64,000 nt of DNA from Euryarchaeota archaeon UBA130. Its GTDB lineage: Archaea; Thermoplasmatota; Poseidoniia; Poseidoniales; Thalassarchaeaceae. Below, in pieces: positions 1 through 63,791 of this stretch. Position 1 is the stretch's first letter, and every line of letters begins with the position of its first letter. The translations under genes and the position numbers were made by a program. Under the pieces are notes generated by a model. That model was given only the letters and a program-made list of their open reading frames with translations. It did not search any database and was not told the DNA's origin. The stretch covers positions 9,318-73,317 of the forward strand of contig DAVY01000006.1 of NCBI GenBank assembly GCA_002505775.1, written 5' to 3'.

Positions 1-1395
1 ATCAACTGTATAACTTTGCCCGGAATCGAGGTAAATGCTTTCTGAAATGCAACCATCAGTCCTCCAAAGTTCTGATCCTGCAGAGTCAGTGAGCACGAGG
101 CTTTGACTATGTGTCCCTGCTGATCTTACCGACGTTCTGAATAGGCAACCTATGTCAGTTGGTACTTCTGATACTCCCAAGTCCTCTACCTCAAAGGTGA
201 AACTACTGCTGTAAACCAACTCAGATCCATCTTCCAAACCAAAGAAAGAAGCCCTATCCTCTGCGGAGTTTCTTCCAGTTTCGCTGTCCGCATGCCCATT
301 GTCCCCATTGAAATCAATAATTTTGAATTTTGTTGGTTGGTATATTCCCCATTTGGACCAATGTGTGGCGGCTATGACACACCAATCAGCTACATCCTCT
401 CCTTCGGCTAAGCTATTCCAAGCAGCCAATCCCTGACTCTCTTCATATGGTATGCACTCATCTTCCCATTGGTCCCAGACATTTCCTTCTTCAACGTGAA
501 CGAGAGTGTCTGATGGTTGAGCTCTGAGGGCATCTAAATCTTCCATATCGTCCATCGCCCCTAGTCCTCCATAGTCCCAGAATCCATTTTCATAGACAGG
601 CCAAGTTACTACTGAAATCAGAACTGCAGCAATTAGGGAACCAACCGCTACTTGTCTTCCTATGCGGGGAGTCACTCTGGATCCAACAGAGTTTAGTAGG
701 AACTTCCTAGTTGGGAAGTAAATTATGGCGAATAAGAAAATTCCAGTAAGTATCCAAGGTACGGCGTTGAAAACTTCTGCAGTCCAAGGGGCCTGTCGGC
801 CACACATCAATTCTGAATGTGATCCCGTGAAGCAGTAATCACTACGGTCCTTGGCGTACAAGTCTAGGAATATGTTGATTGAGAACACCGAGATGAACCA
901 AACATGTGCGAGGTAGACTGCACCAGCGGTAGCGAACCAGGGGTCCTCAACCCCTCTCTTCTCTCTACCGGGGAGAAATGGTGGCAATGCCAAGATTCCA
1001 ACTGGGAGCCCGGTAATTGCAGCGCCCCACCATGCAGCATTCCAGTCTATCACCGGAGCTCCTAGGAATTCACCAATAGGGCCGGCAGGAATGACGAACT
1101 GAGGGAGATACTCCCCCCATCTGAGATATCCATATGAGAAAAGAACATACCAGTCCGGGAATACGAATCCAGCTTGAGCGAATGGATCTGCGGCACTATG
1201 CAAAGGAGGTGGAATGAGCCATGAATAGAATGCTATTGTCATCACAATGGATGCGAAAATAATGGTATCCCTGAGTACTTCTGTGGGCCAGAAAGGATGT
1301 CCTGTGAAAGTCCTCCTCCTCTCTTTATCAGCTTCAAGGAGCTTATCTCTCTCGCTGATGTATGTGTCAGCGATTCTACCAAATCTCTCCATCAT
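1..1395 (-). CDS. Cytochrome b C-terminal domain / subunit IV-like protein (PDWY = PEWY-motif) with a long soluble C-terminal extension. Partial: runs off the window start.
   Basis: Translated by hand from the minus strand, ATGATG start at 1395. Sequence reads MMERFGRIADTY…AGFVFPDWYVLFSY (PEWY-like motif of cyt b C-domain / b6f subunit IV), then TM helices and a >250 aa acidic, Trp-rich tail. Sits directly downstream of the cytochrome b N-domain gene. Not in the ORF track because it is edge-truncated. Confidence 0.55.
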   Translation of the reverse strand, partial: MMERFGRIADTYISERDKLLEADKERRRTFTGHPFWPTEVLRDTIIFASIVMTIAFYSWLIPPPLHSAADPFAQAGFVFPDWYVLFSYGYLRWGEYLPQFVIPAGPIGEFLGAPVIDWNAAWWGAAITGLPVGILALPPFLPGREKRGVEDPWFATAGAVYLAHVWFISVFSINIFLDLYAKDRSDYCFTGSHSELMCGRQAPWTAEVFNAVPWILTGIFLFAIIYFPTRKFLLNSVGSRVTPRIGRQVAVGSLIAAVLISVVTWPVYENGFWDYGGLGAMDDMEDLDALRAQPSDTLVHVEEGNVWDQWEDECIPYEESQGLAAWNSLAEGEDVADWCVIAATHWSKWGIYQPTKFKIIDFNGDNGHADSETGRNSAEDRASFFGLEDGSELVYSSSFTFEVEDLGVSEVPTDIGCLFRTSVRSAGTHSQSLVLTDSAGSELWRTDGCISESIYLDSGQSYTVD

Positions 1396-1411
1396 CCCCA
1401 TAATATCAACC

Positions 1412-2287
1412 TCAGTGTGGCTCCGCAATTCCTTGTGCCCAAACTATGAACAAGTGAGCAAGAATTAGAGTTGTGACTACAACAGGTAGGATGAAAACAT
1501 GAAGGAAATACATTCTTGTTACTGTTTGGCCGGTCACGGTAGTACCAGCAAACATGGCTGTGGCGACCCATCCTCCGATCAGTGGAGTAGAGTTGGCCAT
1601 GTTAATTCCGATAGTAGCCGCGCCAAACGCCAGACTGTCCCATGGCAGCAGATATCCTGAGTAGCCAAAGAATATTGTGAAGAACATCAAGGCAACACCA
1701 ATTAGCCAATTAAGCTCACGAGGATTTCTGTAGGCCCCGGTAAAGTATACCCTGCACATGTGCAAGAAAACGGCGGCGACCATGAAATGTGTGGTCCAAT
1801 GGTGGATGGATCTAATGATGTAACCGAATGGGAGTTGGGTCATGATGAATTCCATACTACTGTAGGCGGGAGTCGGATCCCCCTCCCCACCTGGGACATA
1901 GTACAGTCCGAGGACAGTGCCAGTAATCACGAGAATTACAAACGCGAGGAAAGAAATTCCTCCGAGGCAGTACAGAGGGTACCAGTACCATATTATTCTG
2001 AGCTTGTATTTCTCAGCATGTGTCATCGGCATCTGTCTGTGCATGCCGTAGTATGCATCTCTACTCATCCCCCAGTAGTCTTGAATTCTGAACCTAGTAT
2101 CCAACCAAGAGAAGGCCCAGAGGAAGGTCTTCTCGGCCAGCCCCATACTACTTGCACTTGTTTCCACCGCTCGGAGGATATCTTTTCTCGGCATTTCTTC
2201 CCTTTCCTTTCTGAGAGTGAGAGCCACTATTACAACAACCAAAGTGATGAAAACCCAAAGGAACCAAAATTGAATCATCTTACTCAC
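1412..2287 (-). CDS. Cytochrome b, N-terminal heme-binding domain (b6-type split cytochrome b)
   Basis: 291 aa. Conserved cyt b features: His ligands in TM helices (…RSIHHWTTHFMVAAVFLHMCRVYFTGAY…), WLIGVALMF and GYLLPWDSLAFGAA segments typical of cytochrome b/b6. Sits between the Rieske gene and the PEWY-domain gene. Confidence 0.85.
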   Translation of the reverse strand: MSKMIQFWFLWVFITLVVVIVALTLRKEREEMPRKDILRAVETSASSMGLAEKTFLWAFSWLDTRFRIQDYWGMSRDAYYGMHRQMPMTHAEKYKLRIIWYWYPLYCLGGISFLAFVILVITGTVLGLYYVPGGEGDPTPAYSSMEFIMTQLPFGYIIRSIHHWTTHFMVAAVFLHMCRVYFTGAYRNPRELNWLIGVALMFFTIFFGYSGYLLPWDSLAFGAATIGINMANSTPLIGGWVATAMFAGTTVTGQTVTRMYFLHVFILPVVVTTLILAHLFIVWAQGIAEPH

Positions 2288-2288
2288 C

Positions 2289-3143
2289 TCAGTCGCAGTA
2301 TGTGTACCAATCCTTGAAATCAGGCAATGCCTCTATCAAATCTCCGTTAAGTACGAAGGGTATCAGTGGCATCCCCATTGGTGCCGGGCCCCCGGCCCTC
2401 TTAATACCAATGAAATCAAACTCTGCCCCACTAGATCTGTTTCGTGCCCTATTTTTTTCAATTACAGTCGGGTCGAATCTAGATGAATGGCAGATGCAGA
2501 ATAATTTATTTCCGCCAGAGTCGGTGCCATTTGGAACCCACTGATCTTCGGTAAACTCGTTCGTTACTAGTTGCCACCCAGGAATGCAACAGAGATGCGT
2601 GCATCTGGAGAAAATGAGGATTAAATTATCATGAATTGACAGTGCCTCATATTGAGGGTCCTCATCAAGCTCATATCCCGAGCCGACATATTTCCCATCC
2701 ACCGTGTAACCGTCCATAAACTGGAATCTGGGTTTATCTTGAATGAGGTCAGAACCCTTGTTTTCTTCGTGAGGAACGTAAACAGCATTCACAGGCATTC
2801 CCGACCACACCCCTTGAGCGGCTGACATACCCGTTGAGGAACTTGATGCCGCATCAACAAACGATTGATATGTCATAGGCTCCAAGTGCTTGTCTCCATA
2901 CCAGACTGAATCCTCAGCCCCCGTTGGGACCCAATATCTGACAGCAGTGTCCCCTCCTGAGGTATCTGATTGGCCCATAAGGAGTGCAGCAAAACCTACG
3001 CTGGTTAGGCCTGCCATGGTAATTACTCCTGCCGCTGTATTGAAGGAATGTCTCATAAATTGCCTCCTGTCAATCATGTGCGCGTCCGAATCGTTACCTT
3101 CGTCACCTTCCGAAGTATCCCTGAGAGTGAATTTCCTTGCCAT
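2289..3143 (-). CDS. Rieske [2Fe-2S] iron-sulfur protein (Tat-exported)
   Basis: Twin-arginine signal RRQFMRHSF…AGL. Rieske box I CTHLCC and box II CICHSS. Stop/start abut the cytochrome b gene. Confidence 0.85.
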   Translation of the reverse strand: MARKFTLRDTSEGDEGNDSDAHMIDRRQFMRHSFNTAAGVITMAGLTSVGFAALLMGQSDTSGGDTAVRYWVPTGAEDSVWYGDKHLEPMTYQSFVDAASSSSTGMSAAQGVWSGMPVNAVYVPHEENKGSDLIQDKPRFQFMDGYTVDGKYVGSGYELDEDPQYEALSIHDNLILIFSRCTHLCCIPGWQLVTNEFTEDQWVPNGTDSGGNKLFCICHSSRFDPTVIEKNRARNRSSGAEFDFIGIKRAGGPAPMGMPLIPFVLNGDLIEALPDFKDWYTYCD

Positions 3144-3146
3144 GTT

Positions 3147-3596
3147 CTAGACCTCATATTTTTTCCAGGATTCGGGATCCTTCGCTGTGATGTATTTGTT
3201 TCTCCTGCTCTTAACTATCACTATGTCCGGCATTACATACTTCATGTATATCATACCCAAGATGATCACCGTCAGGAGAAGCATCCCTAGGAAGAAAGAA
3301 AGCATCTGCTGGTCCCATTTGTTGTAAAGCCCGTATGATAGTGATCCAGCCCAGTATAGTGACCACACTATTCCCCATAGGCCAACTAGGATGATTAGCC
3401 ATGAGTCCCCTGACGGAGATACGCTGGCCCTTACTATAGAGCCAGCTGGAGCCTCGTTAAACACACCATGTTCTATTGCCGACTCATACGCTTCTTCGGA
3501 TAACGATATGCCGTCCAAGGCATCTCTAGCGTCTTCTACACTTACCTCTCCAGAAGCTACTTGCCTCAGCATCTTCATGACCACATCGTCTTTCAT
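3147..3596 (-). CDS. Small membrane protein, probable accessory subunit of the Rieske/cyt b complex
   Basis: 149 aa, soluble N-terminus followed by 2–3 predicted TM helices. Translationally coupled (ATGA overlap at 3596) within the five-gene minus-strand operon. Confidence 0.4.
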   Translation of the reverse strand: MKDDVVMKMLRQVASGEVSVEDARDALDGISLSEEAYESAIEHGVFNEAPAGSIVRASVSPSGDSWLIILVGLWGIVWSLYWAGSLSYGLYNKWDQQMLSFFLGMLLLTVIILGMIYMKYVMPDIVIVKSRRNKYITAKDPESWKKYEV

Positions 3597-4432
3597 TACT
3601 GATCACCCCTTCTCTGATGCTTTATCCTCAACCTCAGCAAGTTACTCCTTCCCTCATAATGCCTAGAAAAACCGTATCTCAACATAAGGCCGCAGAAAAT
3701 AATCACAATCACAACTGCCGCGAATCCAAGCAGGCCTAGCCAATGAGCCCTCATTCCAGCTCCCATGTGATGTAAGTCTACGCCTTCTTCGACAGGGGCA
3801 GGGGGCTCTATATCCCCATTTCCGACGAAGACCGTGCGGACTCCGCCAAATTCGCCTTCATCCATGGAAGCGCTGAGACGGTTCCACCTATCGAGTTGTG
3901 AAGGAATACCATCCCCATTCACGGAATTTCCAGCTAGCCATATGGTCACCACACCCGTTCCCTCTGGGGGGGCCGTCCATATGATGTACCACATTCTGTC
4001 TGGGGCCTTGGATCCAGAGTTACTATGTGTTAGAGATGTAACTTCATCTTCCCAATTGTAAACTAAAGCTTCAGATCCCGCTGAGCCAGCTAGGGAGCCA
4101 CTACTAACTCGCATCGAGAATCCACCGGTATGTGATGCGGTATCTGCAGGAGGGCCTCCGATAATCTGAATAACCATCTCGTATGACTCGCCCGGCTCAT
4201 ATCTGTAAGGAACATCGGTCAGGATTAGAGTCACGGAATTATCTGGCTCATCAGCATGGCATGTGCATCCTGCTAGAGCGACATCGCCCTCGTTGTTTGC
4301 ATCCCCTCCTATTCCGGTTGGATTGGCCTGAGAGCCTCCAGCGGCAAGTACAGCGACTATGCTGATAGCCAGCATCTTCCTCACTGTGAGCACACTAGAC
4401 GCCATAGGCAACACCCTTGTTGAACATGCCAC
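3596..4432 (-). CDS. Secreted, C-terminally membrane-anchored protein with GCxCH motif; paralog of 46989..48107. Candidate redox partner of the Rieske/cyt b complex.
   Basis: 278 aa. N-terminal signal/TM (LAISIVAVLAAGG), motif AGCTCHADEP, conserved W-IIWTAPPEG…WLAGNSVNGDGIP block, C-terminal TM helix and basic tail. First gene of the cyt bc operon. Confidence 0.5.
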   Translation of the reverse strand: MACSTRVLPMASSVLTVRKMLAISIVAVLAAGGSQANPTGIGGDANNEGDVALAGCTCHADEPDNSVTLILTDVPYRYEPGESYEMVIQIIGGPPADTASHTGGFSMRVSSGSLAGSAGSEALVYNWEDEVTSLTHSNSGSKAPDRMWYIIWTAPPEGTGVVTIWLAGNSVNGDGIPSQLDRWNRLSASMDEGEFGGVRTVFVGNGDIEPPAPVEEGVDLHHMGAGMRAHWLGLLGFAAVVIVIIFCGLMLRYGFSRHYEGRSNLLRLRIKHQRRGDQ

Positions 4433-43886: not shown

Positions 43887-44058
43887 AATCTCTCCTCATG
43901 CAGGCGAGTAAGATTAGGGTATTAGCACTTTGCGAAGTAGAGACATAAATCACTCTCAGCTTATCCTCTAATGACTTTGAGAATATTGAGCCGACGGCTT
44001 CAATAAGCGCCTACTTATCGGAGGTTCATTATTGGTCTCGGGACTGCAGAGGGATAAG

Positions 44059-45216
44059 ATGAAACTCGGTATTCTCAAGGAGCCAGAAGGAGAAATGAGA
44101 GTACCAATTGTACCTAACTCAATACCCAAACTAGTCAAGTCTGGTCTTGAGGTGATTGTTGAGAATGGGGCTGGTGACCTCGCAAATCATTCGGATTCTG
44201 AGTATGAGAGTAAAGGTGCAAAGATTGTAACCAGGGACGACGTTCTCAGATCTGAAGCATTGATATCGATAAATCCACCTAATTTGGACGACATTAGAGA
44301 GGGGTGCATCTTGATGTGTGTAGCCGATCCATTCAGAAATCCAGATGTTGTGAATAAGGCCATCTCACGTGGAATTACCCTAATCAGTATGGACATGATT
44401 CCTAGGAGACTTTCGAGGGCACAATCAATGGATGTCAACTCCAGCCAAGACAACCTCTCTGGTTACAAAGCCGTTCTGCTCGGAGCTTCGCATGTTCCCA
44501 AAGGAATTCCAATGATGACCACTAGTGCTGGGACAGTTAAACCGGCGAAGTTTGTAGTTATGGGTAGTGGGGTAGCCGGATTGCAGGCTATCGCGACTGC
44601 AAAGAGAATGGGCGCAGTCGTTTACGCATCCGACGTCAGAAAGTCTGCAGCAGAACAAATTGAGTCCGTTGGTGGGAGATTCATCGAGGTAGAGGGTATG
44701 GACGATTTCGAGGATGAATCGGGTTATGCTAAGCCGCTTACACCAGAGTTTATCCAGAAAGTTAACGATACGGTATGTAAGGTAGCCAGTGATGCGGATG
44801 TAATCATTACCACGGCCAGGATATTTGGAAGGCCGGCGCCGATTACTATACCCAAAAGCGCTGTTGAAGAATTCAAAACTGGCGCAGTAATTGTAGACAT
44901 GAATGCTGATGTTGGTGGAAACTGTGAGTTGACCTCCCCCGGAGACATAATCAACAGCCACGGAGTCACAATAATCGGAATAGAGAATTTAGCTGGTACT
45001 ATACCATCAACCGCCAGTATGCTTTACTCGAATAATCTTACCAACTTTGTAATATCATTAATGGAAGATGGCGTTATCTCCGTAGATCTTCAAGACGATA
45101 TTTTAGTTGGCCCACCGGAAGAATCGGATTTCTACGTCGATGGGATGGGAGGAGTCCTCATTTGCATGAACGGGGAGCTTCATAACAATCAAACTAGACT
45201 TGGGGGTATTTTGTAA
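44059..45216 (+). CDS. pntAA: NAD(P) transhydrogenase subunit alpha, part 1 (dI domain)
   Basis: Nearly colinear with E. coli PntA residues 1–380 (MKLGILKEPEGEMRVP…, VMGSGVAGLQAIATAKRMGA…). Start trimmed from the TTG at 44032 to ATG at 44059. Confidence 0.85.
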   Translation: MKLGILKEPEGEMRVPIVPNSIPKLVKSGLEVIVENGAGDLANHSDSEYESKGAKIVTRDDVLRSEALISINPPNLDDIREGCILMCVADPFRNPDVVNKAISRGITLISMDMIPRRLSRAQSMDVNSSQDNLSGYKAVLLGASHVPKGIPMMTTSAGTVKPAKFVVMGSGVAGLQAIATAKRMGAVVYASDVRKSAAEQIESVGGRFIEVEGMDDFEDESGYAKPLTPEFIQKVNDTVCKVASDADVIITTARIFGRPAPITIPKSAVEEFKTGAVIVDMNADVGGNCELTSPGDIINSHGVTIIGIENLAGTIPSTASMLYSNNLTNFVISLMEDGVISVDLQDDILVGPPEESDFYVDGMGGVLICMNGELHNNQTRLGGIL

Positions 45217-45536
45217 TGTCCCTGACCCTGACAGCATTAATTGGCAGTATCACCGTTTTTGTACTGGCAATTTTCCTAGGTTTTGAATTAATCAGCAAAG
45301 TACCACCAACGCTCCACACCCCTCTTATGTCTGGTGCCAATGCAATATCCGGCATCACTATTGTGGGTGCACTTATCCTCTCCAATGCTACATTTAATGG
45401 CATGGAAACCTCTTTTGCAGCAATATTGGCATTCCTAGCCCTTATCATGGCCACGATAAATGTCGTCGGAGGATTCATGGTAACAAATAGAATGTTAGAA
45501 ATGATTGCAGGTAAGAAAAGAAAGGGGGGTAACTAA
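45216..45536 (+). CDS. pntAB: NAD(P) transhydrogenase subunit alpha, part 2 (membrane)
   Basis: 106 aa, three TM helices, HTPLMSGANAISGITIVGAL matches the PntA C-terminal membrane segment. Confidence 0.8.
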   Translation: MSLTLTALIGSITVFVLAIFLGFELISKVPPTLHTPLMSGANAISGITIVGALILSNATFNGMETSFAAILAFLALIMATINVVGGFMVTNRMLEMIAGKKRKGGN

Positions 45537-46982
45537 TTGGTCGACCCTGTTGTTTGGGATATCGGATACTTGCTTTCCGCTTCGATGTTCATTGTCGGCA
45601 TCAAGAGGCTTTCGAGTCCTAGGACGGCTCCCTCGGGTAATAGGCTAGGTGCCCAAGGAATGCTTCTCGCAGTTGTTATTACATTACTAAAAATGCAGTC
45701 CGAAGGTATTATTGGATGGGAGTTGATTGTTGCTGGATTGGCTATTGGCTCAATAATTGGCTACATCATGGCAACCCGCGTAGAGATGACAGGGATGCCA
45801 GAACTCGTGGCTCTGTTCAATGGTTTTGGCGGGGCAGCGTCAGCTCTGGTGGGTCTTTCAGAGGCATTAAAGAGAATCTCTGATGGAGTTCCGGATCCCG
45901 GAGTTGAACTCTATGCCACATGGACTGCTATCGGCCTATCAGCATTAGTGGGATGGATTACACTATCTGGTAGCTTAATGGCAATGATGAAGCTCAAAGG
46001 TGGATTCTATGTACCGTTTTCCAAGAAAGATGAAAGGGGAAGAAGCAAATGGATCTCATTTCCAACGTGGGGCCCACCCTGGCTAAATTGGGTCAAAGCC
46101 TCTTTGCTACTCGCATCATTGGCCCTGATAATATTGACAATTCAGAACCCTGAAGATAAAACATATGTTTACTCTCTTGTTGCTACATCGACTCTTCTTG
46201 GTATTCTTTTCGTTCTCCCAATTGGTGGGGCAGATATGCCAGTCGTAGTCAGCCTACTCAACTCGCTTTCTGGGATTGCAGCAGCTTTTACAGGGTTCGT
46301 AATAGGCAACAATGTCTTGATAATTGCTGGCTCAATGGTAGGCGCCGCGGGTTTGATCTTGACATTCATCATGTGCAAAGCAATGAACAGGGAGCTATTC
46401 GATGTCCTCTTCAAGGCATTCGGTGGATCGGGGGAGAAAGATCAGCTCACCAGAACTAAAGTTGGAAGTGATCCGGAAGAGGTTGCGATGGTCTTGGATG
46501 GAGCTCAAAAAGTAATTGTAGTGCCAGGATACGGTATGGCAGTTAGCCAAAGTCAGCATGCAGTGAAGGAGTTCGCGGACCTTATGGAATCATTTGATTG
46601 CGAGGTCCTGTATGCCATCCACCCAGTGGCTGGGAGGATGCCAGGCCACATGAACGTACTATTGGCAGAAGCCAACGTACCTTATGAGAAACTAATCGAG
46701 ATGGACGACATTAATTCTGAATTCCCAGAATGCGACGTTGCATTGGTGATTGGAGCCAATGACACCACTAACCCTGCCGCTAGGACTGATGAGGGACCAT
46801 TAGCAGGAATGCCAATTCTAGATGTCGACAAATCCTCGGTAGTAGTGATAATCAAGAGAAGCCTTTCTGTCGGTTATGCAGGTGTTGACAATGACCTCTT
46901 TTACATGGATAAAACAATGATGTTATTCGGCGATGGTAAAAAGATGATGAATGAACTGAACTCTGCAATTAAGGAGCTGTAA
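45537..46982 (+). CDS. pntB: NAD(P) transhydrogenase subunit beta
   Basis: 481 aa. N-terminal membrane domain and C-terminal NADP(H)-binding dIII (…VVPGYGMAVSQSQHAVKE…GANDTTNPAA…). Confidence 0.9.
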   Translation: MVDPVVWDIGYLLSASMFIVGIKRLSSPRTAPSGNRLGAQGMLLAVVITLLKMQSEGIIGWELIVAGLAIGSIIGYIMATRVEMTGMPELVALFNGFGGAASALVGLSEALKRISDGVPDPGVELYATWTAIGLSALVGWITLSGSLMAMMKLKGGFYVPFSKKDERGRSKWISFPTWGPPWLNWVKASLLLASLALIILTIQNPEDKTYVYSLVATSTLLGILFVLPIGGADMPVVVSLLNSLSGIAAAFTGFVIGNNVLIIAGSMVGAAGLILTFIMCKAMNRELFDVLFKAFGGSGEKDQLTRTKVGSDPEEVAMVLDGAQKVIVVPGYGMAVSQSQHAVKEFADLMESFDCEVLYAIHPVAGRMPGHMNVLLAEANVPYEKLIEMDDINSEFPECDVALVIGANDTTNPAARTDEGPLAGMPILDVDKSSVVVIIKRSLSVGYAGVDNDLFYMDKTMMLFGDGKKMMNELNSAIKEL

Positions 46983-46988
46983 ACCAAA

Positions 46989-48107
46989 GTGATGAACATG
47001 TCTCCAAGCAAGCGTTATTTGTCTGCTACCCCTGTGCATCAATTAAGGGGCAGTAAAATGACTGGGCTCAAGAGACTATTCGCCGTTTTACTTACAATAT
47101 CTATCCTCTCAATCCCTGCTGTCGGAATGAGCTCGGGCCCGGGTTATGAAAATGCAGACGGAGATCCCACTGTGAAATATGGCTGTAATTGCCATAACAA
47201 TGGCGCGGCCTCAACAAGAGCAGTAGTGATGGTTACTGGAGTCCCAGTCATGTATGAATTGGGGGCCTCGTATGATATGACAATTAAGGTTGCAGACTCG
47301 CTCACATTATCAGGAGGGGATGGAAACACACAAGGTGGATTTTTGATGACTTCAGATGGCATAGGAATATTCTCATGGTCAGATGATGAGGAAATTCGCG
47401 CTGCTGAGGATGCACCATTGGACATATCGCACTCAGATACTGACTCTGACGGCATATGGGAGATAACTTGGACAGCTCCAACAGAGGACCTAGGACCAGT
47501 CCATTTTTGGGTTGCTGGTAACTCTGTCAATGGGGATGGAGCTCCAGGGGACGAAGACTGGTGGAATATCCTAACATTTACTATCAACGCACCTGGAACA
47601 ATAGAGTCAAGTGATTCCGGAGCTACTCTTGAAACTAGAACAGTTTCAGTCGGAGATTATGAAACCCTATTCATAGTAGAGGAATCAGAAGCTCAAAGGG
47701 AAGCTGAAAGACAGGAGGCACTATCACACAGAGTTTTCACTCAAGGGAATCTATTTTTCTGGACCAGTCTAACCGCGCTCCTTATCGGAGCCTTGGTTCA
47801 AAGGGAGATTTTAGAGAGAAGGTATGATGATGGCCCAGAATTCCTTGCTATGGAGTTGGCTTACCCACAAGCAATTAGAAGGGGCTTAATGGGCATTGGC
47901 TCTTTCTGGCTGGCTATCAGGTGGGCCTCTTCCGAGACCCAGATTTATTTCCCTCCCCCTGCGGTCGTTAAAGAAGGGACAAAGATGACTGATTTGACTG
48001 ACTTCCTAATTGGATCCGCATTCCTAGCCAGCGCACTGTTCGCCTACGGGGTATATAGGACAATATTGGCCGCTAGAAAGGACCCAGATGTCAAGGATCG
48101 GCTGTAG
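46989..48107 (+). CDS. Secreted, C-terminally membrane-anchored GCxCH-motif protein; paralog of 3596..4432
   Basis: 372 aa; signal peptide probably begins at the internal Met (47058, MTGLKRLFAVLLTISILSIPAVG). GCNCHNN motif, conserved GIWEITWTAPTEDLGPVHFWVAGNSVNGDGAP block, two C-terminal TM segments. Immediately follows pntB. Confidence 0.5.
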   Translation: MMNMSPSKRYLSATPVHQLRGSKMTGLKRLFAVLLTISILSIPAVGMSSGPGYENADGDPTVKYGCNCHNNGAASTRAVVMVTGVPVMYELGASYDMTIKVADSLTLSGGDGNTQGGFLMTSDGIGIFSWSDDEEIRAAEDAPLDISHSDTDSDGIWEITWTAPTEDLGPVHFWVAGNSVNGDGAPGDEDWWNILTFTINAPGTIESSDSGATLETRTVSVGDYETLFIVEESEAQREAERQEALSHRVFTQGNLFFWTSLTALLIGALVQREILERRYDDGPEFLAMELAYPQAIRRGLMGIGSFWLAIRWASSETQIYFPPPAVVKEGTKMTDLTDFLIGSAFLASALFAYGVYRTILAARKDPDVKDRL

Positions 48108-48881
48108 ATGTCAGAACAAATGATTAATCTTGAATCAAAGTCTTTGGAAAATCACTTCCAAGAACTGTACTCACTTGTAAAAAATACAATATTATTTACT
48201 TCAATATCTGCAATAGGATGGTCTATAGTTGCCCCTCAATTATTGACAGATTGGGTCAATCTATTCAATACCGGCGATAACATAAACCAATTGTCAATCT
48301 ATACTCCATTCAATTGGATAGAGGTCAAATGGTCCTTTTCCATAATGATGGGTATAATCACAGCTTTCCCACTTTTCTCAGTAATGCTATACAGGTTCTC
48401 TAAACCAGCCCTGTACCCAAACGAGGTTTTTCCAGTCAAATTAATATTAATTGCAAACTCATTAATGTTACCAATTTCAATATTCCTAATTTGGATATGG
48501 GGGGTACCTAATGTGGTAAAATATGCAAACGGACTATCTCAATTAGAAAATATTAGTGCTAGATATGACCTATTTGAAATCGTCAATTTTGCTTTGGGAT
48601 TCACGGTTATGGCCATTATCTCGTTTATCCTCATGACATCACTCATCTTATCCAGAATTATTGGTGACGTAGACGGGATGTATAATTGGTTGAGGCCCAG
48701 GATCATGATAATCTCATTTGGCCTTTTCATTCTAACTATGCCATCGGTATTCGAGGGTCTAAGGATTCCCTTGTCCTGTGTAATAATTTTCCTCTCCGAC
48801 CTTTTAGCGAGATCCTTTCCACTTGCGAGAAATATGACCGAAATCATTCAAGATGACACTGCATTGAAAGGTCACGCATAG
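48108..48881 (+). CDS. Polytopic membrane protein (hypothetical)
   Basis: 257 aa, ~6 predicted TM helices. Start abuts the stop of the GCxCH protein. Confidence 0.45.
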   Translation: MSEQMINLESKSLENHFQELYSLVKNTILFTSISAIGWSIVAPQLLTDWVNLFNTGDNINQLSIYTPFNWIEVKWSFSIMMGIITAFPLFSVMLYRFSKPALYPNEVFPVKLILIANSLMLPISIFLIWIWGVPNVVKYANGLSQLENISARYDLFEIVNFALGFTVMAIISFILMTSLILSRIIGDVDGMYNWLRPRIMIISFGLFILTMPSVFEGLRIPLSCVIIFLSDLLARSFPLARNMTEIIQDDTALKGHA

Positions 48882-48892
48882 CAGCGACCTCC

Positions 48893-50848
48893 GTGAGATC
48901 ATTCAAAGTGGTCATTGCCACACTCATACTATTTGGGGGAATATGGGTCAATCTAAATCCTGATTTAGTCAACACAACATACAATTTCGACGACTCCGAC
49001 GAAAATCCAAATCTAGTAGGCCTGCAAGAGAATGAACATTGGCTAGTGATAAGAGTGGCATTTCCCTCTATGCCACACTCTCTTTCGGAAACGGAATCTC
49101 TGTTATTGGGCTCTGGTTCGGCACAGGAATATATTTCTCAACTATCAGGAGGTGTTTCAAATTTAGAAGTTACAATTTCTGATGAAGTATGGATCTCTGA
49201 TTTTGAGGAGTCCTACTGGGGAGCTGATTCACAAAACGAACGTGATGTAGGAAATGGGGGAAGCGGGGTAGATAAATTGGTAGAAGAATCTGCCTTAGAT
49301 TTACTTAGTGGTATGGACCTCTCTCAGTGGGACATCAATGGAGATGGTGTCATTGATAGGCTCCTAGTCTTACATTCAGGAAATGCACAGGAGTCAGGAG
49401 GCCCATCCAATTCAATTTGGAGCCATTTCTCAAATCTTATGAATCCTGTAAGTGTAGGTCAATGGGAGATTCAGCACTATACAATTTCATCAATGGAATC
49501 TGGGCTTGGCACACTTGTTCATGAAATGTTGCATCAAATGGGTGCCTACGACTTGTACGATGTCCACTCAGATCTTCCTTCGAGTACATGGAATGGCCTC
49601 GGAGATTGGGACATTATGGCTAGTGGTAACTGGAATGGAAACTCAATGTCACCTGCTATGCCAGGGGCAGCGACCCTAATCACTGTCGGTGGACTCGGAA
49701 TCATTGAAATCGAAACCTCGACAACACAAGATATTCAGTTATATCCAATGTCTTCAAAGAATAACAATACGCGTGTTGCTTATATCGAGACCGCTCCAGA
49801 AGAAGCTGTTTTGGTAACATACCGTGCCGATATAGGATTTGACTCTGAGCTACCCGGCTTCGGGATTATTGTAGAATACCTAGATAAAAATAATGGCAAT
49901 GTAGATGAAAATACTGTGAATAAAGATCCAAATAATCCATGGGTTAAGATTTTGGAGGCTGATGGTGATCAGGCTTTAGTCAGGAATCGTGACACTGGAA
50001 GCCCGGGAGACGCGTTTCAGTCAGGAGACTCATTTGGTCATGAAGGATTCAAAATTAGGGACAATAGAGGAAGATTAGTTCCTTGGCAAATTGAAGTTCA
50101 GAGCATAGAATCTGATGTTGCAACATTAAGATTTTCAACCCTTGAAAACTACACCGACAGAGTACTGACACCGAGGTCTCCTATTCAGTTAATCGAAGGA
50201 GAGAATGCTTATGCCAGTGTGTTTAGCGAGAACCCGTGTACCCTACTAGTAAACATCAGTACCGATTTAACGGTCCCTCAAGCTACAGAGGTGGAAATAC
50301 CATCTGGAGAAACTATAATCCCAATAATTAGAGCCTCTGAAACTTCTGATGATTTAGGTTTAATAACAGGAAAGATAGGTTGCAAAGATAAGAATCCCGA
50401 GGACATTAGAATCGAATGGCAGAAGATCGGTCATAGGATTGTTACTAAAGAGACAATCCATGTTATTCCATGGAATCAAGATTCAACTATTCAAATACCG
50501 ATTAACACAAATGGCTATGGAGAAAGAAGCTATGATATTGCCATAGAGGGAGCAGTAGATAGAATTGCATCCTCTTCAACTCAAGGGGTTTTTTCTCCAG
50601 GGGATGAAATCTTAATGAAGATCGAACCTAATGGATTACTGACCCCTGGCATGTATGCAAGGGGAGAAATCGTGATTCAAGATGAATTTTCCGTTGAGCA
50701 AAGAATAGAGATTACATTAATTGCCGAATCGCCATTTACAGGAGACGGCCTATTGGGCTGGATTTCGCAGCCATCTAATGGAATTCTGGTAATTTCAATT
50801 CTTCTGGCATTTAGCATACTAACGGGCAAAAGCAGAGATATTACCTAG
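48893..50848 (+). CDS. Secreted zinc metalloprotease (HExxHxxGxxD, M6/InhA-like) with C-terminal membrane anchor
   Basis: 651 aa. Signal/TM at N-terminus, HEMLHQMGAYDLYD zinc site, β-rich C-terminal domains, terminal TM GILVISILLAFSIL. Confidence 0.6.
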   Translation: MRSFKVVIATLILFGGIWVNLNPDLVNTTYNFDDSDENPNLVGLQENEHWLVIRVAFPSMPHSLSETESLLLGSGSAQEYISQLSGGVSNLEVTISDEVWISDFEESYWGADSQNERDVGNGGSGVDKLVEESALDLLSGMDLSQWDINGDGVIDRLLVLHSGNAQESGGPSNSIWSHFSNLMNPVSVGQWEIQHYTISSMESGLGTLVHEMLHQMGAYDLYDVHSDLPSSTWNGLGDWDIMASGNWNGNSMSPAMPGAATLITVGGLGIIEIETSTTQDIQLYPMSSKNNNTRVAYIETAPEEAVLVTYRADIGFDSELPGFGIIVEYLDKNNGNVDENTVNKDPNNPWVKILEADGDQALVRNRDTGSPGDAFQSGDSFGHEGFKIRDNRGRLVPWQIEVQSIESDVATLRFSTLENYTDRVLTPRSPIQLIEGENAYASVFSENPCTLLVNISTDLTVPQATEVEIPSGETIIPIIRASETSDDLGLITGKIGCKDKNPEDIRIEWQKIGHRIVTKETIHVIPWNQDSTIQIPINTNGYGERSYDIAIEGAVDRIASSSTQGVFSPGDEILMKIEPNGLLTPGMYARGEIVIQDEFSVEQRIEITLIAESPFTGDGLLGWISQPSNGILVISILLAFSILTGKSRDIT

Positions 50849-63375: not shown

Positions 63376-63407
63376 TAGTAATGTTCTCTTTAATACCAGG
63401 TGGAAAA

Positions 63408-63791
63408 ATGTCATTGAATCGTAATAATCGACTATTTGTTATCGGCGGATCGATAATCGTGCTGGTAATTATGATGCTAGCAACAGTCGACCCAGAGACT
63501 CAATATTACATTGACAATGTCATGGATGATCCTGAGGATTACACTGGCGATGTTCATATCAGGGGGGAGGTCTTGGAAGGCTCAGTGGACGTTGAAAACT
63601 ACACTTTCGTTTTGACCGGTGTTAACCATATGCTGTTGGTTGACTTCCATGGCGCAGCAGTACCAGATGGATTTAGTGAAGGAAAAACAATCGCAATCAA
63701 GGGAACATTGTCATCTTCCTCTGGAGAGTGGATTCTAGATGCTAAAGAGATTCAAACTGGGTGCCCATCAAAATATGAATCAGCAGAATAA
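63408..63791 (+). CDS. ccmE: Cytochrome c-type biogenesis heme chaperone CcmE, CxxxY variant
   Basis: Colinear with E. coli CcmE: N-terminal anchor NRNNRLFVIGGSIIVLV, OB-fold region GEVLEGSVDV…FVLTG…VDFHGAAVPDGFSEGKTIAIKGTL. Heme-binding HxxxY is replaced by GCPSKY (CxxxY). Confidence 0.7.
   Translation: MSLNRNNRLFVIGGSIIVLVIMMLATVDPETQYYIDNVMDDPEDYTGDVHIRGEVLEGSVDVENYTFVLTGVNHMLLVDFHGAAVPDGFSEGKTIAIKGTLSSSSGEWILDAKEIQTGCPSKYESAE

What the first reader, a model, noticed from the sequence alone, without database searches (positions are those of the whole stretch)
3596..4432. New paralogous family of anchored extracytoplasmic proteins with a GCxCH…WTAPxE…AGNSVNGDG signature, first gene of a Rieske/cyt b operon
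Seen in sequence: the 278-aa product of 3596..4432 and the 372-aa product of 46989..48107 align over ~130 aa. GCTCHADEP / GCNCHNNGA, then W-IIWTAPPEGTG-V-IWLAGNSVNGDGIP / W-EITWTAPTEDLGPVHFWVAGNSVNGDGAP. Both have an N-terminal signal/TM and a C-terminal TM anchor. One copy heads the Rieske–cyt b–subunit IV operon. Archaeal bc-type complexes lack a canonical cytochrome c1/f, and the electron-accepting partner differs by lineage (blue copper proteins, b-type haems). A conserved Cys-x-Cys-His in an extracytoplasmic domain at this position is a candidate metal or haem site for that role. CxCH is not the canonical CxxCH haem-c motif, and it is the same spacing as Rieske box II, so what is bound is open. 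A System I haem chaperone (CcmE, CxxxY variant) is encoded in the same window.
Basis: partly seen in the sequence, partly recalled or inferred. Interest (0 to 1): 0.68.

Follow-up and report, generated by a model that had tools for sequence, protein, structure and literature searches.

The report
Probable novel cytochrome of archaeal bc-complex
A membrane-anchored, outward-facing protein with an invariant Cys-x-Cys-His motif heads the Rieske/cytochrome b operon of marine group II archaea and is also fused to their terminal oxidase, which makes it the best candidate for the electron-exit subunit these abundant ocean microbes seemed to lack; the family already has a database name but no known function.

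Summary
ORF 3596..4432(-) and ORF 46989..48107(+) are paralogs (BLASTP 3e-25) sharing GCxCH, WTAP and NxVNGDG.

The family is not new by name. Both proteins match NCBIfam NF041895 'choice-of-anchor V', and the fold is a Reeler-like beta-sandwich. It is large (3,599 representative clusters) and has no assigned function.

New evidence supports a respiratory electron-transfer role:
- The gene order choice-V, DUF7318, Rieske, cyt b is kept in 32/32 MGII loci and in three distant lineages at about 25-30% identity.
- In 26 MGII loci the domain is fused in frame to the N-terminus of haem-copper oxidase subunit I.
- Other members are fused to a plastocyanin-type cupredoxin or to a b561-like membrane domain.

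The motif behaves like a haem-c attachment site. The Cys-His pair is invariant, while the Cys spacing varies: one residue in most, but also 2, 4 and 6, and one member has lost the first Cys. 105/109 domains contain only these two Cys.

Best reading: a c1/f-equivalent subunit carrying covalently bound haem on an unprecedented CX1CH motif. The cofactor is inferred, not shown, and a copper site or a non-redox role remain possible.

The parts
3596..4432 (-). choice-of-anchor V protein 'choV1' (278 aa as listed; the likely true start is ATG 4405, giving 269 aa). First gene of the operon.
4325..4432 (-). Sec-type signal peptide (residues 1-36). Predicted cleavage is after SQA36. The invariant Gly40 lies 4 residues after the small-x-small site across the family.
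   Evidence: alignment; the cleavage site is inferred
4256..4267 (-). Cys56-Thr-Cys58-His59, the proposed cofactor (haem) attachment motif.
   Evidence: Invariant in A2 and in 115/115 observable loci. Spacing variants.
3818..4324 (-). Extracytoplasmic Reeler-like beta-sandwich domain (residues 37-205), including the conserved NxVNGDG...D181 loop.
   Evidence: AF2 pLDDT 95, pTM 0.90; Foldseek; NF041895
3662..3754 (-). C-terminal transmembrane anchor (residues 227-257).
   Evidence: AF2 helix; conserved in orthologs
3599..3661 (-). Nearly invariant cytoplasmic tail, RYGFSRHYxGRSNLLxLRIKHLRRGDQ.
   Evidence: a related RxGxSxH/Y tail occurs in distant operon-linked members
3147..3596 (-). 149-aa two-helix membrane protein, Pfam DUF7318. 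Always the second gene.
   Evidence: E 1.8e-6, above cutoff; 32/32 loci
2289..3143 (-). Divergent Rieske iron-sulfur protein with a twin-arginine signal and the boxes CTHLCC / CICHSSRFD.
1412..2287 (-). Cytochrome b, N-terminal (b6-like) part.
1..1401 (-). First 467 aa of the subunit-IV/cyt b C-terminal-like protein (PDWY). Full-length orthologs continue into a cytoplasmic 4Fe-4S plus 2x CCG (HdrD-like) module.
46989..48107 (+). Paralog 'choV2' (372 aa): choice-V domain (GCNCH at 47181..47195) plus about three C-terminal membrane segments.
44032..46982 (+). pntAa/pntAb/pntB-type transhydrogenase genes directly upstream of choV2 (named from the translated sequences; no family search was run on them). 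The pntAb and pntB neighbours are conserved.
48108..48881 (+). TatC-like protein directly downstream of choV2.
   Evidence: PF00902, 1e-12; 33/38 loci
63381..63791 (+). CcmE haem chaperone, archaeal CxxxY (CPSKY) type. Solitary gene.

Best explanation
choV1 is the extracytoplasmic electron-exit subunit of the MGII Rieske/cytochrome b complex. It is the functional equivalent of cytochrome c1 or f.

Proposed mechanism:
1. The protein is exported by Sec and its signal peptide is removed.
2. The Cys-x-Cys-His segment, about 20 residues from the new N-terminus, receives a covalently bound haem. Attachment is through Cys58, usually also Cys56, with His59 as axial ligand. The archaeal Ccm system does this.
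3. The Reeler/cyt f-like beta-sandwich sits on the outer face. A C-terminal helix and a conserved cytoplasmic tail dock it to the complex.
4. It accepts single electrons from the Rieske cluster.
5. It passes them, directly or via a carrier, to the homologous domain fused to oxidase subunit I, which feeds CuA.

Shown: homology, motif conservation and variation, synteny, fusions, fold.
Inferred: the cofactor identity, the axial ligands and the electron path.
For: 1. Subunit status.
- choice-V, DUF7318, Rieske, cyt b is found in 32/32 MGII loci. Every missing neighbour is explained by a locus end.
- The same order is found in a 3-Mb contig.
- It is also found in three other contigs whose choice-V proteins are only about 25-30% identical to choV1: L205, L206 and L207, the last also seen without DNA via P0314.
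- The genes are tightly packed, with a TAATG overlap.

2. Redox context.
- 26 ORFs fuse the domain in frame to COX1. One example is L030:3908-6268, with PF00115 6e-144 over residues 240-694. These ORFs are flanked by CoxII with a CuA motif and by CoxIII.
- P0267 fuses the domain to a plastocyanin/azurin domain (PF00127, 2e-14).
- P0357 fuses it to DUF4079, read here as b561-like.
- P0304 fuses it to the CoxI N-terminus.
- In bacterial L002, two members lie next to a Rieske protein.

3. Motif behaviour.
- G-C-x-C-H is invariant in 109 diverse sequences.
- 115/115 observable genomic copies have it.
- 105/109 domains contain exactly these two Cys.
- The spacing varies while the Cys-His pair is fixed: CxxCH in P0368, P0389 and L002; Cx4CH in five representative proteins, L002 and one other genomic locus; Cx6CH in P0278; and a single-Cys GATCH in the operon-linked P0257. 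Haem-c sites vary in this way (own knowledge).

4. Export and maturation.
- The signals are Sec-type.
- CcmE is encoded in the window.
- The archaeal Ccm system is functional (PMC9084895).
- No canonical CxxCH ORF occurs in the window or in about 1 Mb of MGII respiratory loci.

5. Fold.
- The models are confident.
- Besides Reeler domains, cytochrome f (2jxm_B) is hit twice (E 1e-4 and 1.6e-4), once over 163 alignment columns against the 169-residue domain model.
- hhalign places C-TCH on cyt f CANCH, followed by the VP...P...[YF]E.V..I strand.

6. Literature.
Against: - No haem-c site with a single residue between the cysteines is known to me, and a literature search found none.
- There is no conserved Met.
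- The only other conserved His (H136) is Gln in 8 of the 109 aligned family members and in 17 of the 119 genomic copies, so the sixth ligand is undefined.
- The best structural and sequence relative, the F-spondin Reeler domain, binds no cofactor.
- The cytochrome f link is weak: hhalign probability is 2-4%, and only one of 17 PDB cyt f sequences is hit.
- Many bacterial members are large surface proteins with Ig repeats and a T9SS tail, and have no obvious respiratory context.
- ccm genes are not adjacent to any copy.
- The single-Cys and Cx6CH variants are each a single metagenomic sequence.
Confidence: 0.5

Rival explanations
1. Same role (outer-face electron-transfer subunit and oxidase-tethered donor), but the CxC-His segment, together with His136, binds copper or another metal rather than haem.
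For: - Two Cys plus two His is the ligand set of CuA-type sites, and CxC is a known Cu(I) motif in Cox11 (CFCF) and CCS (own knowledge).
- One-electron carriers in related archaea are copper proteins: halocyanin, including a halocyanin-oxidase fusion (PMC8305020).
- All context evidence fits any redox cofactor.
Against: - The spacing varies (1, 2, 4 and 6 residues).
- The first Cys is lost in an operon-linked member.
- His136 is Gln in a substantial minority.
- There is no conserved Met.
- P0267 already carries a separate cupredoxin domain.
Confidence: 0.2
2. A non-redox extracytoplasmic module. It would be a Reeler-like binding, scaffolding or anchoring domain that organises or tethers membrane complexes or surface proteins, with CxCH forming a structural metal site or a strained disulfide.
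For: - The closest relatives are cofactor-free Reeler domains.
- The family was named for its many alternative cell-surface anchors.
- Bacterial members are long proteins with Ig repeats and a T9SS tail.
- choV2 and the small paralogs have no respiratory neighbours.
- The NxVNGDG...D loop looks like a calcium loop (sequence inspection).
Against: - An invariant Cys-His pair in an oxidising compartment, with no partner cysteines, is hard to explain structurally.
- Fusions are specifically to CoxI, a cupredoxin and a b561-like module.
- The Rieske/cyt b operon is conserved across distant lineages.
Confidence: 0.17
3. A copper chaperone or assembly factor for the oxidase or for cupredoxins, like Cox11, Sco or PCuAC.
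For: The CxC motif, the Ig-like fold, the membrane anchor, and the association with CoxI and a cupredoxin. The Cox11 analogy is from own knowledge.
Against: - A permanent in-frame fusion to CoxI is unusual for a chaperone.
- The most conserved context is the copper-free Rieske/cyt b operon.
- Several paralogs occur per genome.
Confidence: 0.05

Closest known systems
NCBIfam NF041895, choice-of-anchor V domain (includes the MXAN_6652 MYXO-CTERM family NF041894)
   Same: Both window proteins are members by score (89 and 72 bits against a cutoff of 42). They share the GCxCH...WTAP...NxVNGDG signature and the variable C-terminal anchors (TM helix, PGF-CTERM, T9SS tail).
   Different: The family is defined only by sequence and by its anchors. 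It has no function, cofactor or respiratory context attached. The operon link and the CoxI, cupredoxin and b561-like fusions are shown here.
Reeler domain (Pfam PF02014; F-spondin structures 3coo, 2zou, 2zot)
   Same: Best fold match (Foldseek E 3e-7 to 5e-5, TM about 0.5-0.6). Weak sequence match (profile E 0.001; 38/109 members hit PF02014), including the W-x-AP strand. The eukaryotic Reeler-DOMON-b561 ferric reductases (own knowledge) would parallel the P0357 fusion.
   Different: Reeler domains lack the N-terminal CxCH segment and have no known cofactor. The window proteins themselves score below the Pfam threshold.
Cytochrome f of b6f complexes
   Same: Outer-face beta-sandwich with a Sec signal. 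The Cys...Cys-His motif lies about 20 residues from the mature N-terminus, directly before the first strand. There is a C-terminal TM anchor and a partnership with Rieske plus a split cytochrome b. Foldseek hits 2jxm_B at E 1e-4 over nearly the whole domain.
   Different: The motif is CxCH, not CxxCH. There is no small domain and no Pfam cyt f match. hhalign is not significant (P 0.01-0.03). The N-terminal amine ligand is untested.
Cytochrome c1 of bc1 complexes
   Same: Proposed role: the anchored acceptor of Rieske electrons, with a C-terminal TM helix.
   Different: The fold is unrelated (all-alpha class I in c1), there is no CxxCH and no Pfam match. The similarity is functional analogy only.
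Sulfolobus cbsAB-soxLN locus (CbsA, cytochrome b558/566); own knowledge, not tested here
   Same: Same gene logic: an anchored extracellular mono-haem protein, then a small hydrophobic protein, then Rieske, then cytochrome b.
   Different: CbsA binds haem b non-covalently. Homology to the choice-V domain was not tested.
Oxidases with a tethered one-electron donor (caa3 cytochrome c domain; haloarchaeal halocyanin-oxidase fusion, PMC8305020)
   Same: A donor domain is permanently fused to a terminal-oxidase subunit.
   Different: Here the fusion is to the N-terminus of subunit I through an extra TM helix, and the domain is choice-V rather than class I cytochrome c or a cupredoxin.

Membership tests
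NCBIfam NF041895 choice-of-anchor V | HMM score above the curated cutoff (42 bits) | tested here: met
   89.0 and 72.1 bits, covering profile positions 2-147 of 150
Pfam Reeler PF02014 | HMM score above the gathering threshold (21 bits) | tested here: not met
   choV1 has no hit and choV2 scores 12.2 bits. 38/109 family members hit weakly, best 2.2e-5.
Reeler superfamily (fold level) | Same beta-sandwich topology as F-spondin Reeler structures | tested here: met
   Foldseek E 3.6e-7 and 2.8e-6, probability 1.0, TM 0.5-0.6; profile against PDB E 0.001
c-type cytochrome | CXXCH (or a known CXnCH/K variant) haem-attachment motif | tested here: inconclusive
   The window proteins have CxCH (n = 1, unprecedented). 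Homologs at the same alignment position have n = 2, 4 and 6, and one has AxCH.
c-type cytochrome | Covalently bound haem | not testable with these tools
   Needs haem stain, pyridine haemochrome or mass spectrometry
c-type cytochrome | Sec export and a cytochrome c maturation system in the genome | tested here: inconclusive
   The signal is Sec-type. CcmE is in the window. The other ccm genes are not in the window or in L120.
Cytochrome f | Sequence membership (Pfam apocytochrome f models) | tested here: not met
   No hit in any of the 109 members at E <= 10. hhalign probability 2-4%.
Cytochrome f | Large-domain fold with an N-terminal haem-binding segment | tested here: inconclusive
   2jxm_B is hit at E 1e-4 and 1.6e-4, once over 163 alignment columns against the 169-residue model, but it is the only one of 17 PDB cyt f sequences hit.
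Cytochrome c1 | Pfam or PDB sequence match | tested here: not met
   No hits
Cupredoxin / blue copper | Cupredoxin domain match and the H...C..H..M ligand pattern | tested here: not met
   There is no Copper-bind hit in the choice-V domain. In P0267 the cupredoxin is a separate domain.
DOMON / EB_dh haem-b domains | Pfam match | tested here: not met
   No hit in 109 members
Subunit of a Rieske/cyt b complex | Conserved co-operonic arrangement with Rieske and cyt b across lineages | tested here: met
   32/32 MGII loci plus L201, L205, L206 and L207
Subunit of a Rieske/cyt b complex | Physical presence in the purified complex | not testable with these tools
   No cultured MGII organism; needs biochemistry or cryo-EM

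The most novel reading that the evidence does not exclude
The choice-of-anchor V domain is a previously unrecognised class of c-type cytochrome. It would be a Reeler/cyt f-like beta-sandwich that binds haem covalently through a CX1CH motif, which pattern searches for CxxCH cannot see. It is widespread (thousands of clusters in archaea and bacteria). In marine group II archaea it would supply both the missing c1-type subunit of the Rieske/cyt b complex and a donor domain fused to oxidase subunit I. That would also make these proteins the principal substrates of the archaeal Ccm system in this lineage.
Probability: 0.45. Interest if true: 0.88.

Novelty: new variant of a known kind. Interest (0 to 1): 0.74.

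Why it matters
MGII (Poseidoniales) are among the most abundant archaea of the surface ocean. Their respiratory chain has been described as lacking a canonical complex III (PMC6336850). Identifying the acceptor subunit, together with an oxidase-tethered copy of the same domain, gives a complete and testable electron path.

If the motif binds haem, three things follow:
- It extends the rules for covalent haem attachment to a single intervening residue.
- It exposes a large family that every CxxCH-based census misses. [quoted passage not shown] The haloarchaeal case now has a rival SdhD explanation (PMC8305020).
- It gives the eukaryotic Reeler domain a redox-related prokaryotic ancestry.

Tried and rejected
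- The third homolog search, with the diverse alignment A2, returned the same MGII orthologs and added nothing.
I replaced it with a hand-made degenerate DNA pattern. That pattern retrieved mostly MGII loci, so the genome survey is biased towards that order.
- The listing of cluster members gave no organism names for ten representatives.
- tblastn against plasmids with a member and with the family consensus found nothing. Haloarchaeal membership therefore could not be tested, and I do not claim that the family solves the 'haloarchaea paradox'. Pfeiffer and Dyall-Smith attribute that to SdhD.
- The metagenome scan for cytochrome f returned only chloroplast sequences more than 91% identical. They were useless for a deep profile, and the hhalign result stayed non-significant.
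- phmmer with the DUF7318 protein against the fetched proteins found nothing.
- Met107 was considered as an axial ligand and rejected, because it is Leu in most members.
- A Rieske-type [2Fe-2S] site was considered because of the CxCH box and rejected: there is no second box and there are only two Cys.
- Literature searches for 'CXCH haem', for choice-of-anchor V and for a later solution of the paradox found nothing relevant.
Full report
**1. The observation**

ORF 3596..4432 lies on the minus strand (278 aa) and ORF 46989..48107 on the plus strand (372 aa). They align with BLASTP E = 3e-25 at 31% identity over the whole extracytoplasmic part. The quoted motifs are there: GCTCH/GCNCH, WTAP and AGNSVNGDG.

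Orthologs mostly start at the ATG at 4405 (269 aa), so the GTG start at 4432 is probably an artefact of ORF listing.

The operon is tight on the minus strand:
- choV1 (3596..4432).
It passes the Pfam threshold for DUF7318 and overlaps the choV1 stop as TAATG.
- A divergent Rieske protein (2289..3143). It has no Pfam hit, but both cluster boxes align to bc1 iron-sulfur proteins (E 0.008).
- Cytochrome b (1412..2287; PF00033, 8e-42).
- An open frame with a PDWY motif that runs off the window start.

CcmE of the archaeal CxxxY type is at 63381..63791. The contig is PBPA01000001.1 of assembly GCA_002724535.1. Homolog names place it in the Thalassarchaeaceae, that is MGIIb.

**2. What the family is**

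It is not a new family by name. Both proteins match NCBIfam NF041895 'choice-of-anchor V domain' well above its cutoff, and some GenBank homologs already carry that name. No function is attached to the name, and a literature search on 'choice-of-anchor' found nothing on this family.

A profile search of 1.8 billion representatives found 3,599 clusters at E <= 0.001 and 569 at E <= 1e-10.

AlphaFold models are confident: pLDDT 86.7 for the full protein and 95.0 (pTM 0.90) for residues 37-205. They show a beta-sandwich followed by a membrane helix.

- Foldseek's best PDB matches are F-spondin Reeler domains (E 3.6e-7 and 2.8e-6).
- The next distinct fold in both searches is cytochrome f (2jxm_B; E 1e-4 and 1.6e-4). 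The second hit spans 163 alignment columns against the 169-residue model.
- A family profile finds the Reeler domain of spondin at E 0.001.
- 38 of 109 members touch Pfam Reeler weakly, and none touches cytochrome f, c1, DOMON or cupredoxin models.

So the domain is a prokaryotic Reeler-superfamily relative with an added N-terminal segment that carries CxCH.

**3. Conservation of the motif**

In 109 diverse sequences (25-40% identical to choV1), the invariant positions are G55, C56, C58, H59, G104 and D181. At least 90% conserved are G40, P75, Y84, F105, G112, W148, W152, P155, N169, V171, G173 and W183.

His136 is 89% conserved and otherwise mostly Gln. Met107 is usually Leu.

105 of 109 domains contain exactly two cysteines, so the pair has no disulfide partner elsewhere.

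In 119 genomic loci retrieved with a DNA pattern that did not include the motif, 115 of 115 observable copies have it. The other four are cut by locus ends.

The spacing between the cysteines varies while the Cys-His pair is fixed:
- One residue in the great majority.
- Two residues in P0368, P0389 and a bacterial protein of L002.
- Four residues in five representative proteins, a second L002 protein and one other genomic locus.
- Six residues in P0278.
- In P0257 the first Cys is replaced, giving G-A-T-C-H.

Haem-c attachment sites vary in exactly this way (CXnCH, and the single-Cys AXXCH/FXXCH of euglenozoans; own knowledge). Two-cysteine metal sites are not expected to.

Gly40 lies exactly four residues after the small-x-small signal-cleavage site in almost every member. 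This suggests the mature N-terminus itself is structurally important, as it is in cytochrome f, but I could not test that.

**4. Genomic context**

Among the 119 loci, which are almost all Poseidoniales, I found four recurrent contexts.

- (A) 32 orthologs of choV1. All are followed by DUF7318 (32/32), Rieske (31/32) and cytochrome b (26/32). Every miss is due to a locus end. Both MGIIa and MGIIb are covered.
- (B) 38 orthologs of choV2, in the order pntAb-pntB-choV2-TatC-like-M6 peptidase (33-34 of 38 for pntB and TatC).
- (C) 26 ORFs in which the domain is fused in frame, through a membrane helix, to the N-terminus of haem-copper oxidase subunit I. An example is L030:3908-6268 (786 aa; COX1 6e-144 over residues 240-694). 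These lie between a CoxII with the CuA motif CxExCGxxHxxM and a CoxIII.
- (D) About ten small copies next to an FtsZ/CetZ-like gene.

A few further small copies have PGF-CTERM-like tails.

Outside MGII, the look-ups accepted representative proteins and showed the same operon in divergent lineages.
- L207: two tandem choice-V genes, then DUF7318 and Rieske before the contig ends. The no-DNA look-up of P0314 lists the same gene set continuing into a cytochrome b and a Fer4+CCG protein.
- L205: choice-V, DUF7318, Rieske, cytochrome b.
- L206: choice-V, DUF7318, a Rieske-like protein, cytochrome b, a cyt b C-terminal part with Fer4, CCG, HdrA-like and FlpD genes. TatC, TatA and complex I genes lie upstream.
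- L201, on a 3-Mb contig, repeats the MGII arrangement.

Other fusions point the same way:
- P0267 carries CARDB repeats and a plastocyanin/azurin domain.
- P0357 carries DUF4079, which I read as a b561-like membrane domain; it also gave a faint prokaryotic cytochrome b561 hit.
- P0304 runs into the CoxI N-terminus.

In a bacterial contig (L002), two members lie next to a Rieske protein.

**5. Mechanism proposed**

I commit to the following, at about 50% confidence.

1. choV1 is exported by Sec.
2. It receives a covalently bound haem on Cys58/His59, usually also on Cys56, from the Ccm system.
3. It sits on the outer face anchored by its C-terminal helix. The nearly invariant cytoplasmic tail, which recurs as RxGxSxH/Y in the distant operon-linked members, probably docks it to the complex.
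4. It takes electrons from the Rieske cluster.
5. The homologous domain fused to CoxI plays the part that the tethered cytochrome c plays in caa3 oxidases, or that the fused halocyanin plays in haloarchaea (PMC8305020).

Topology is coherent. The anchor helix returns the chain to the cytoplasm, where CoxI normally starts (own knowledge).

The general statement, that the domain is a redox-cofactor-bearing electron-transfer module and a subunit of the complex, I rate at about 0.75. Haem specifically I rate at about 0.5.

The literature agrees that MGII have cytochrome b and Rieske genes but no canonical bc1 (PMC6336850), and that the streamlined archaeal Ccm system is functional (PMC9084895). 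No canonical CxxCH ORF occurs in the window. Among about 1,000 ORFs of the sampled loci the only one is the choice-V variant of L002. That sample is redundant and small, however, and chance alone would give less than one.

**6. Weaknesses**

- A CX1CH haem site has no precedent that I know of, and none was found.
- The sixth ligand is undefined.
- The closest fold relatives are cofactor-free.
- The cytochrome f similarity is suggestive only. hhalign puts C-TCH on CANCH, followed by a matching VP...P...[YF]E.V..I strand and GG[FL], but at P 0.01-0.03. Only one of 17 PDB cytochrome f sequences is hit.
- Many bacterial members are long surface proteins with Ig repeats and a T9SS tail.
- The single-Cys and Cx6CH variants are single metagenomic sequences.

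The rivals are a copper or other metal redox site (0.2), a non-redox Reeler-like scaffold (0.17) and a copper chaperone (0.05).

**7. Relation to the 'haloarchaea paradox'**

[quoted passage not shown] That makes a non-CxxCH family attractive. Two points hold me back:
- Pfeiffer and Dyall-Smith attribute the purified 18-kDa haem protein to SdhD (PMC8305020).
- I could not show that haloarchaea carry the family.

I therefore make no claim here beyond noting that CxxCH-based censuses cannot see this family.

**8. Verdict**

'New family' is not: this is a named but function-less family. I rate it a new variant of a known kind: an anchored acceptor subunit of a Rieske/cyt b complex, probably a cytochrome with a new fold and motif. 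Interest 0.74.

Noticed in passing
window 1..1401 (-); full length in L012:4260-7043, L001, L201:11006-13822: The last operon gene is a roughly 930-aa fusion. It joins a cyt b C-terminal/subunit-IV-like part (PDWY), a roughly 250-aa outer region, a TM helix and a cytoplasmic HdrD/GlpC-like module (4Fe-4S dicluster plus 2x CCG, PF02754 6e-23). In L206 the same functions are split and followed by HdrA-like and FlpD genes. This Rieske/cyt b complex therefore seems wired to a cytoplasmic heterodisulfide-reductase-like module.
   Followed up: partly
L030:3908-6268, plus 25 other loci (e.g. L010, L028, L036, L055): MGII haem-copper oxidase subunit I carries an N-terminal choice-V domain plus an extra TM helix. 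At least two or three oxidase types (CoxI 85%, 56-59% and 39% identical to the L030 CoxI) share this fusion.
   Followed up: yes
window 44032..50848 (+): The paralog choV2 sits in a conserved string: pntAa-pntAb-pntB-choV2-TatC-like-M6 peptidase. Its partner and role are unknown. Its orthologs share a C-terminal GVYRT motif.
   Followed up: partly
window 2289..3143 (-): The Rieske protein is so divergent that Pfam finds nothing at E <= 1. The boxes are CTHLCC and CICHSS, there is a twin-arginine signal, and an unusually long insert lies between the boxes.
   Followed up: partly
window 3599..3790 (-), residues about 215-278 of choV1: The stalk, TM helix and tail are nearly invariant in orthologs (DLHHMGAxxRAHWLGLLGF...RYGFSRHYxGRSNLLxLRIKHLRRGDQL). 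They include histidines at the outer membrane interface. The level of conservation is unusual for a simple anchor.
   Followed up: no
window 3147..3596 (-): The DUF7318 protein (two TM helices, no conserved His seen in the TM segments of the window and L206 copies) is always the second gene, from MGII to distant lineages (89-150 aa). It is an uncharacterised obligatory partner.
   Followed up: partly
window 63381..63791 (+); L120: CcmE is a solitary gene after dihydroorotate dehydrogenase. No other ccm gene lies within 10 kb.
   Followed up: partly
L021, L025, L060, L071, L072, L099, L101, L111: A small (about 200-280 aa) choice-V paralog is consistently adjacent to, and convergent with, an FtsZ/CetZ-like gene in MGII.
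   Followed up: no
L002:1-3903: A bacterial contig carries two adjacent choice-V proteins with GCGDCH (CxxCH) and GCGGGSCH (Cx4CH). One has Ig repeats and a T9SS tail. A Tat-signal Rieske-domain protein lies next to them.
   Followed up: partly
L004 (labelled Acidimicrobiaceae), L008 (labelled Legionellales): These contigs carry MGII-type operons whose proteins are about 30-90% identical to the window's. They are probably mis-binned MGII contigs in bacterial MAGs.
   Followed up: no
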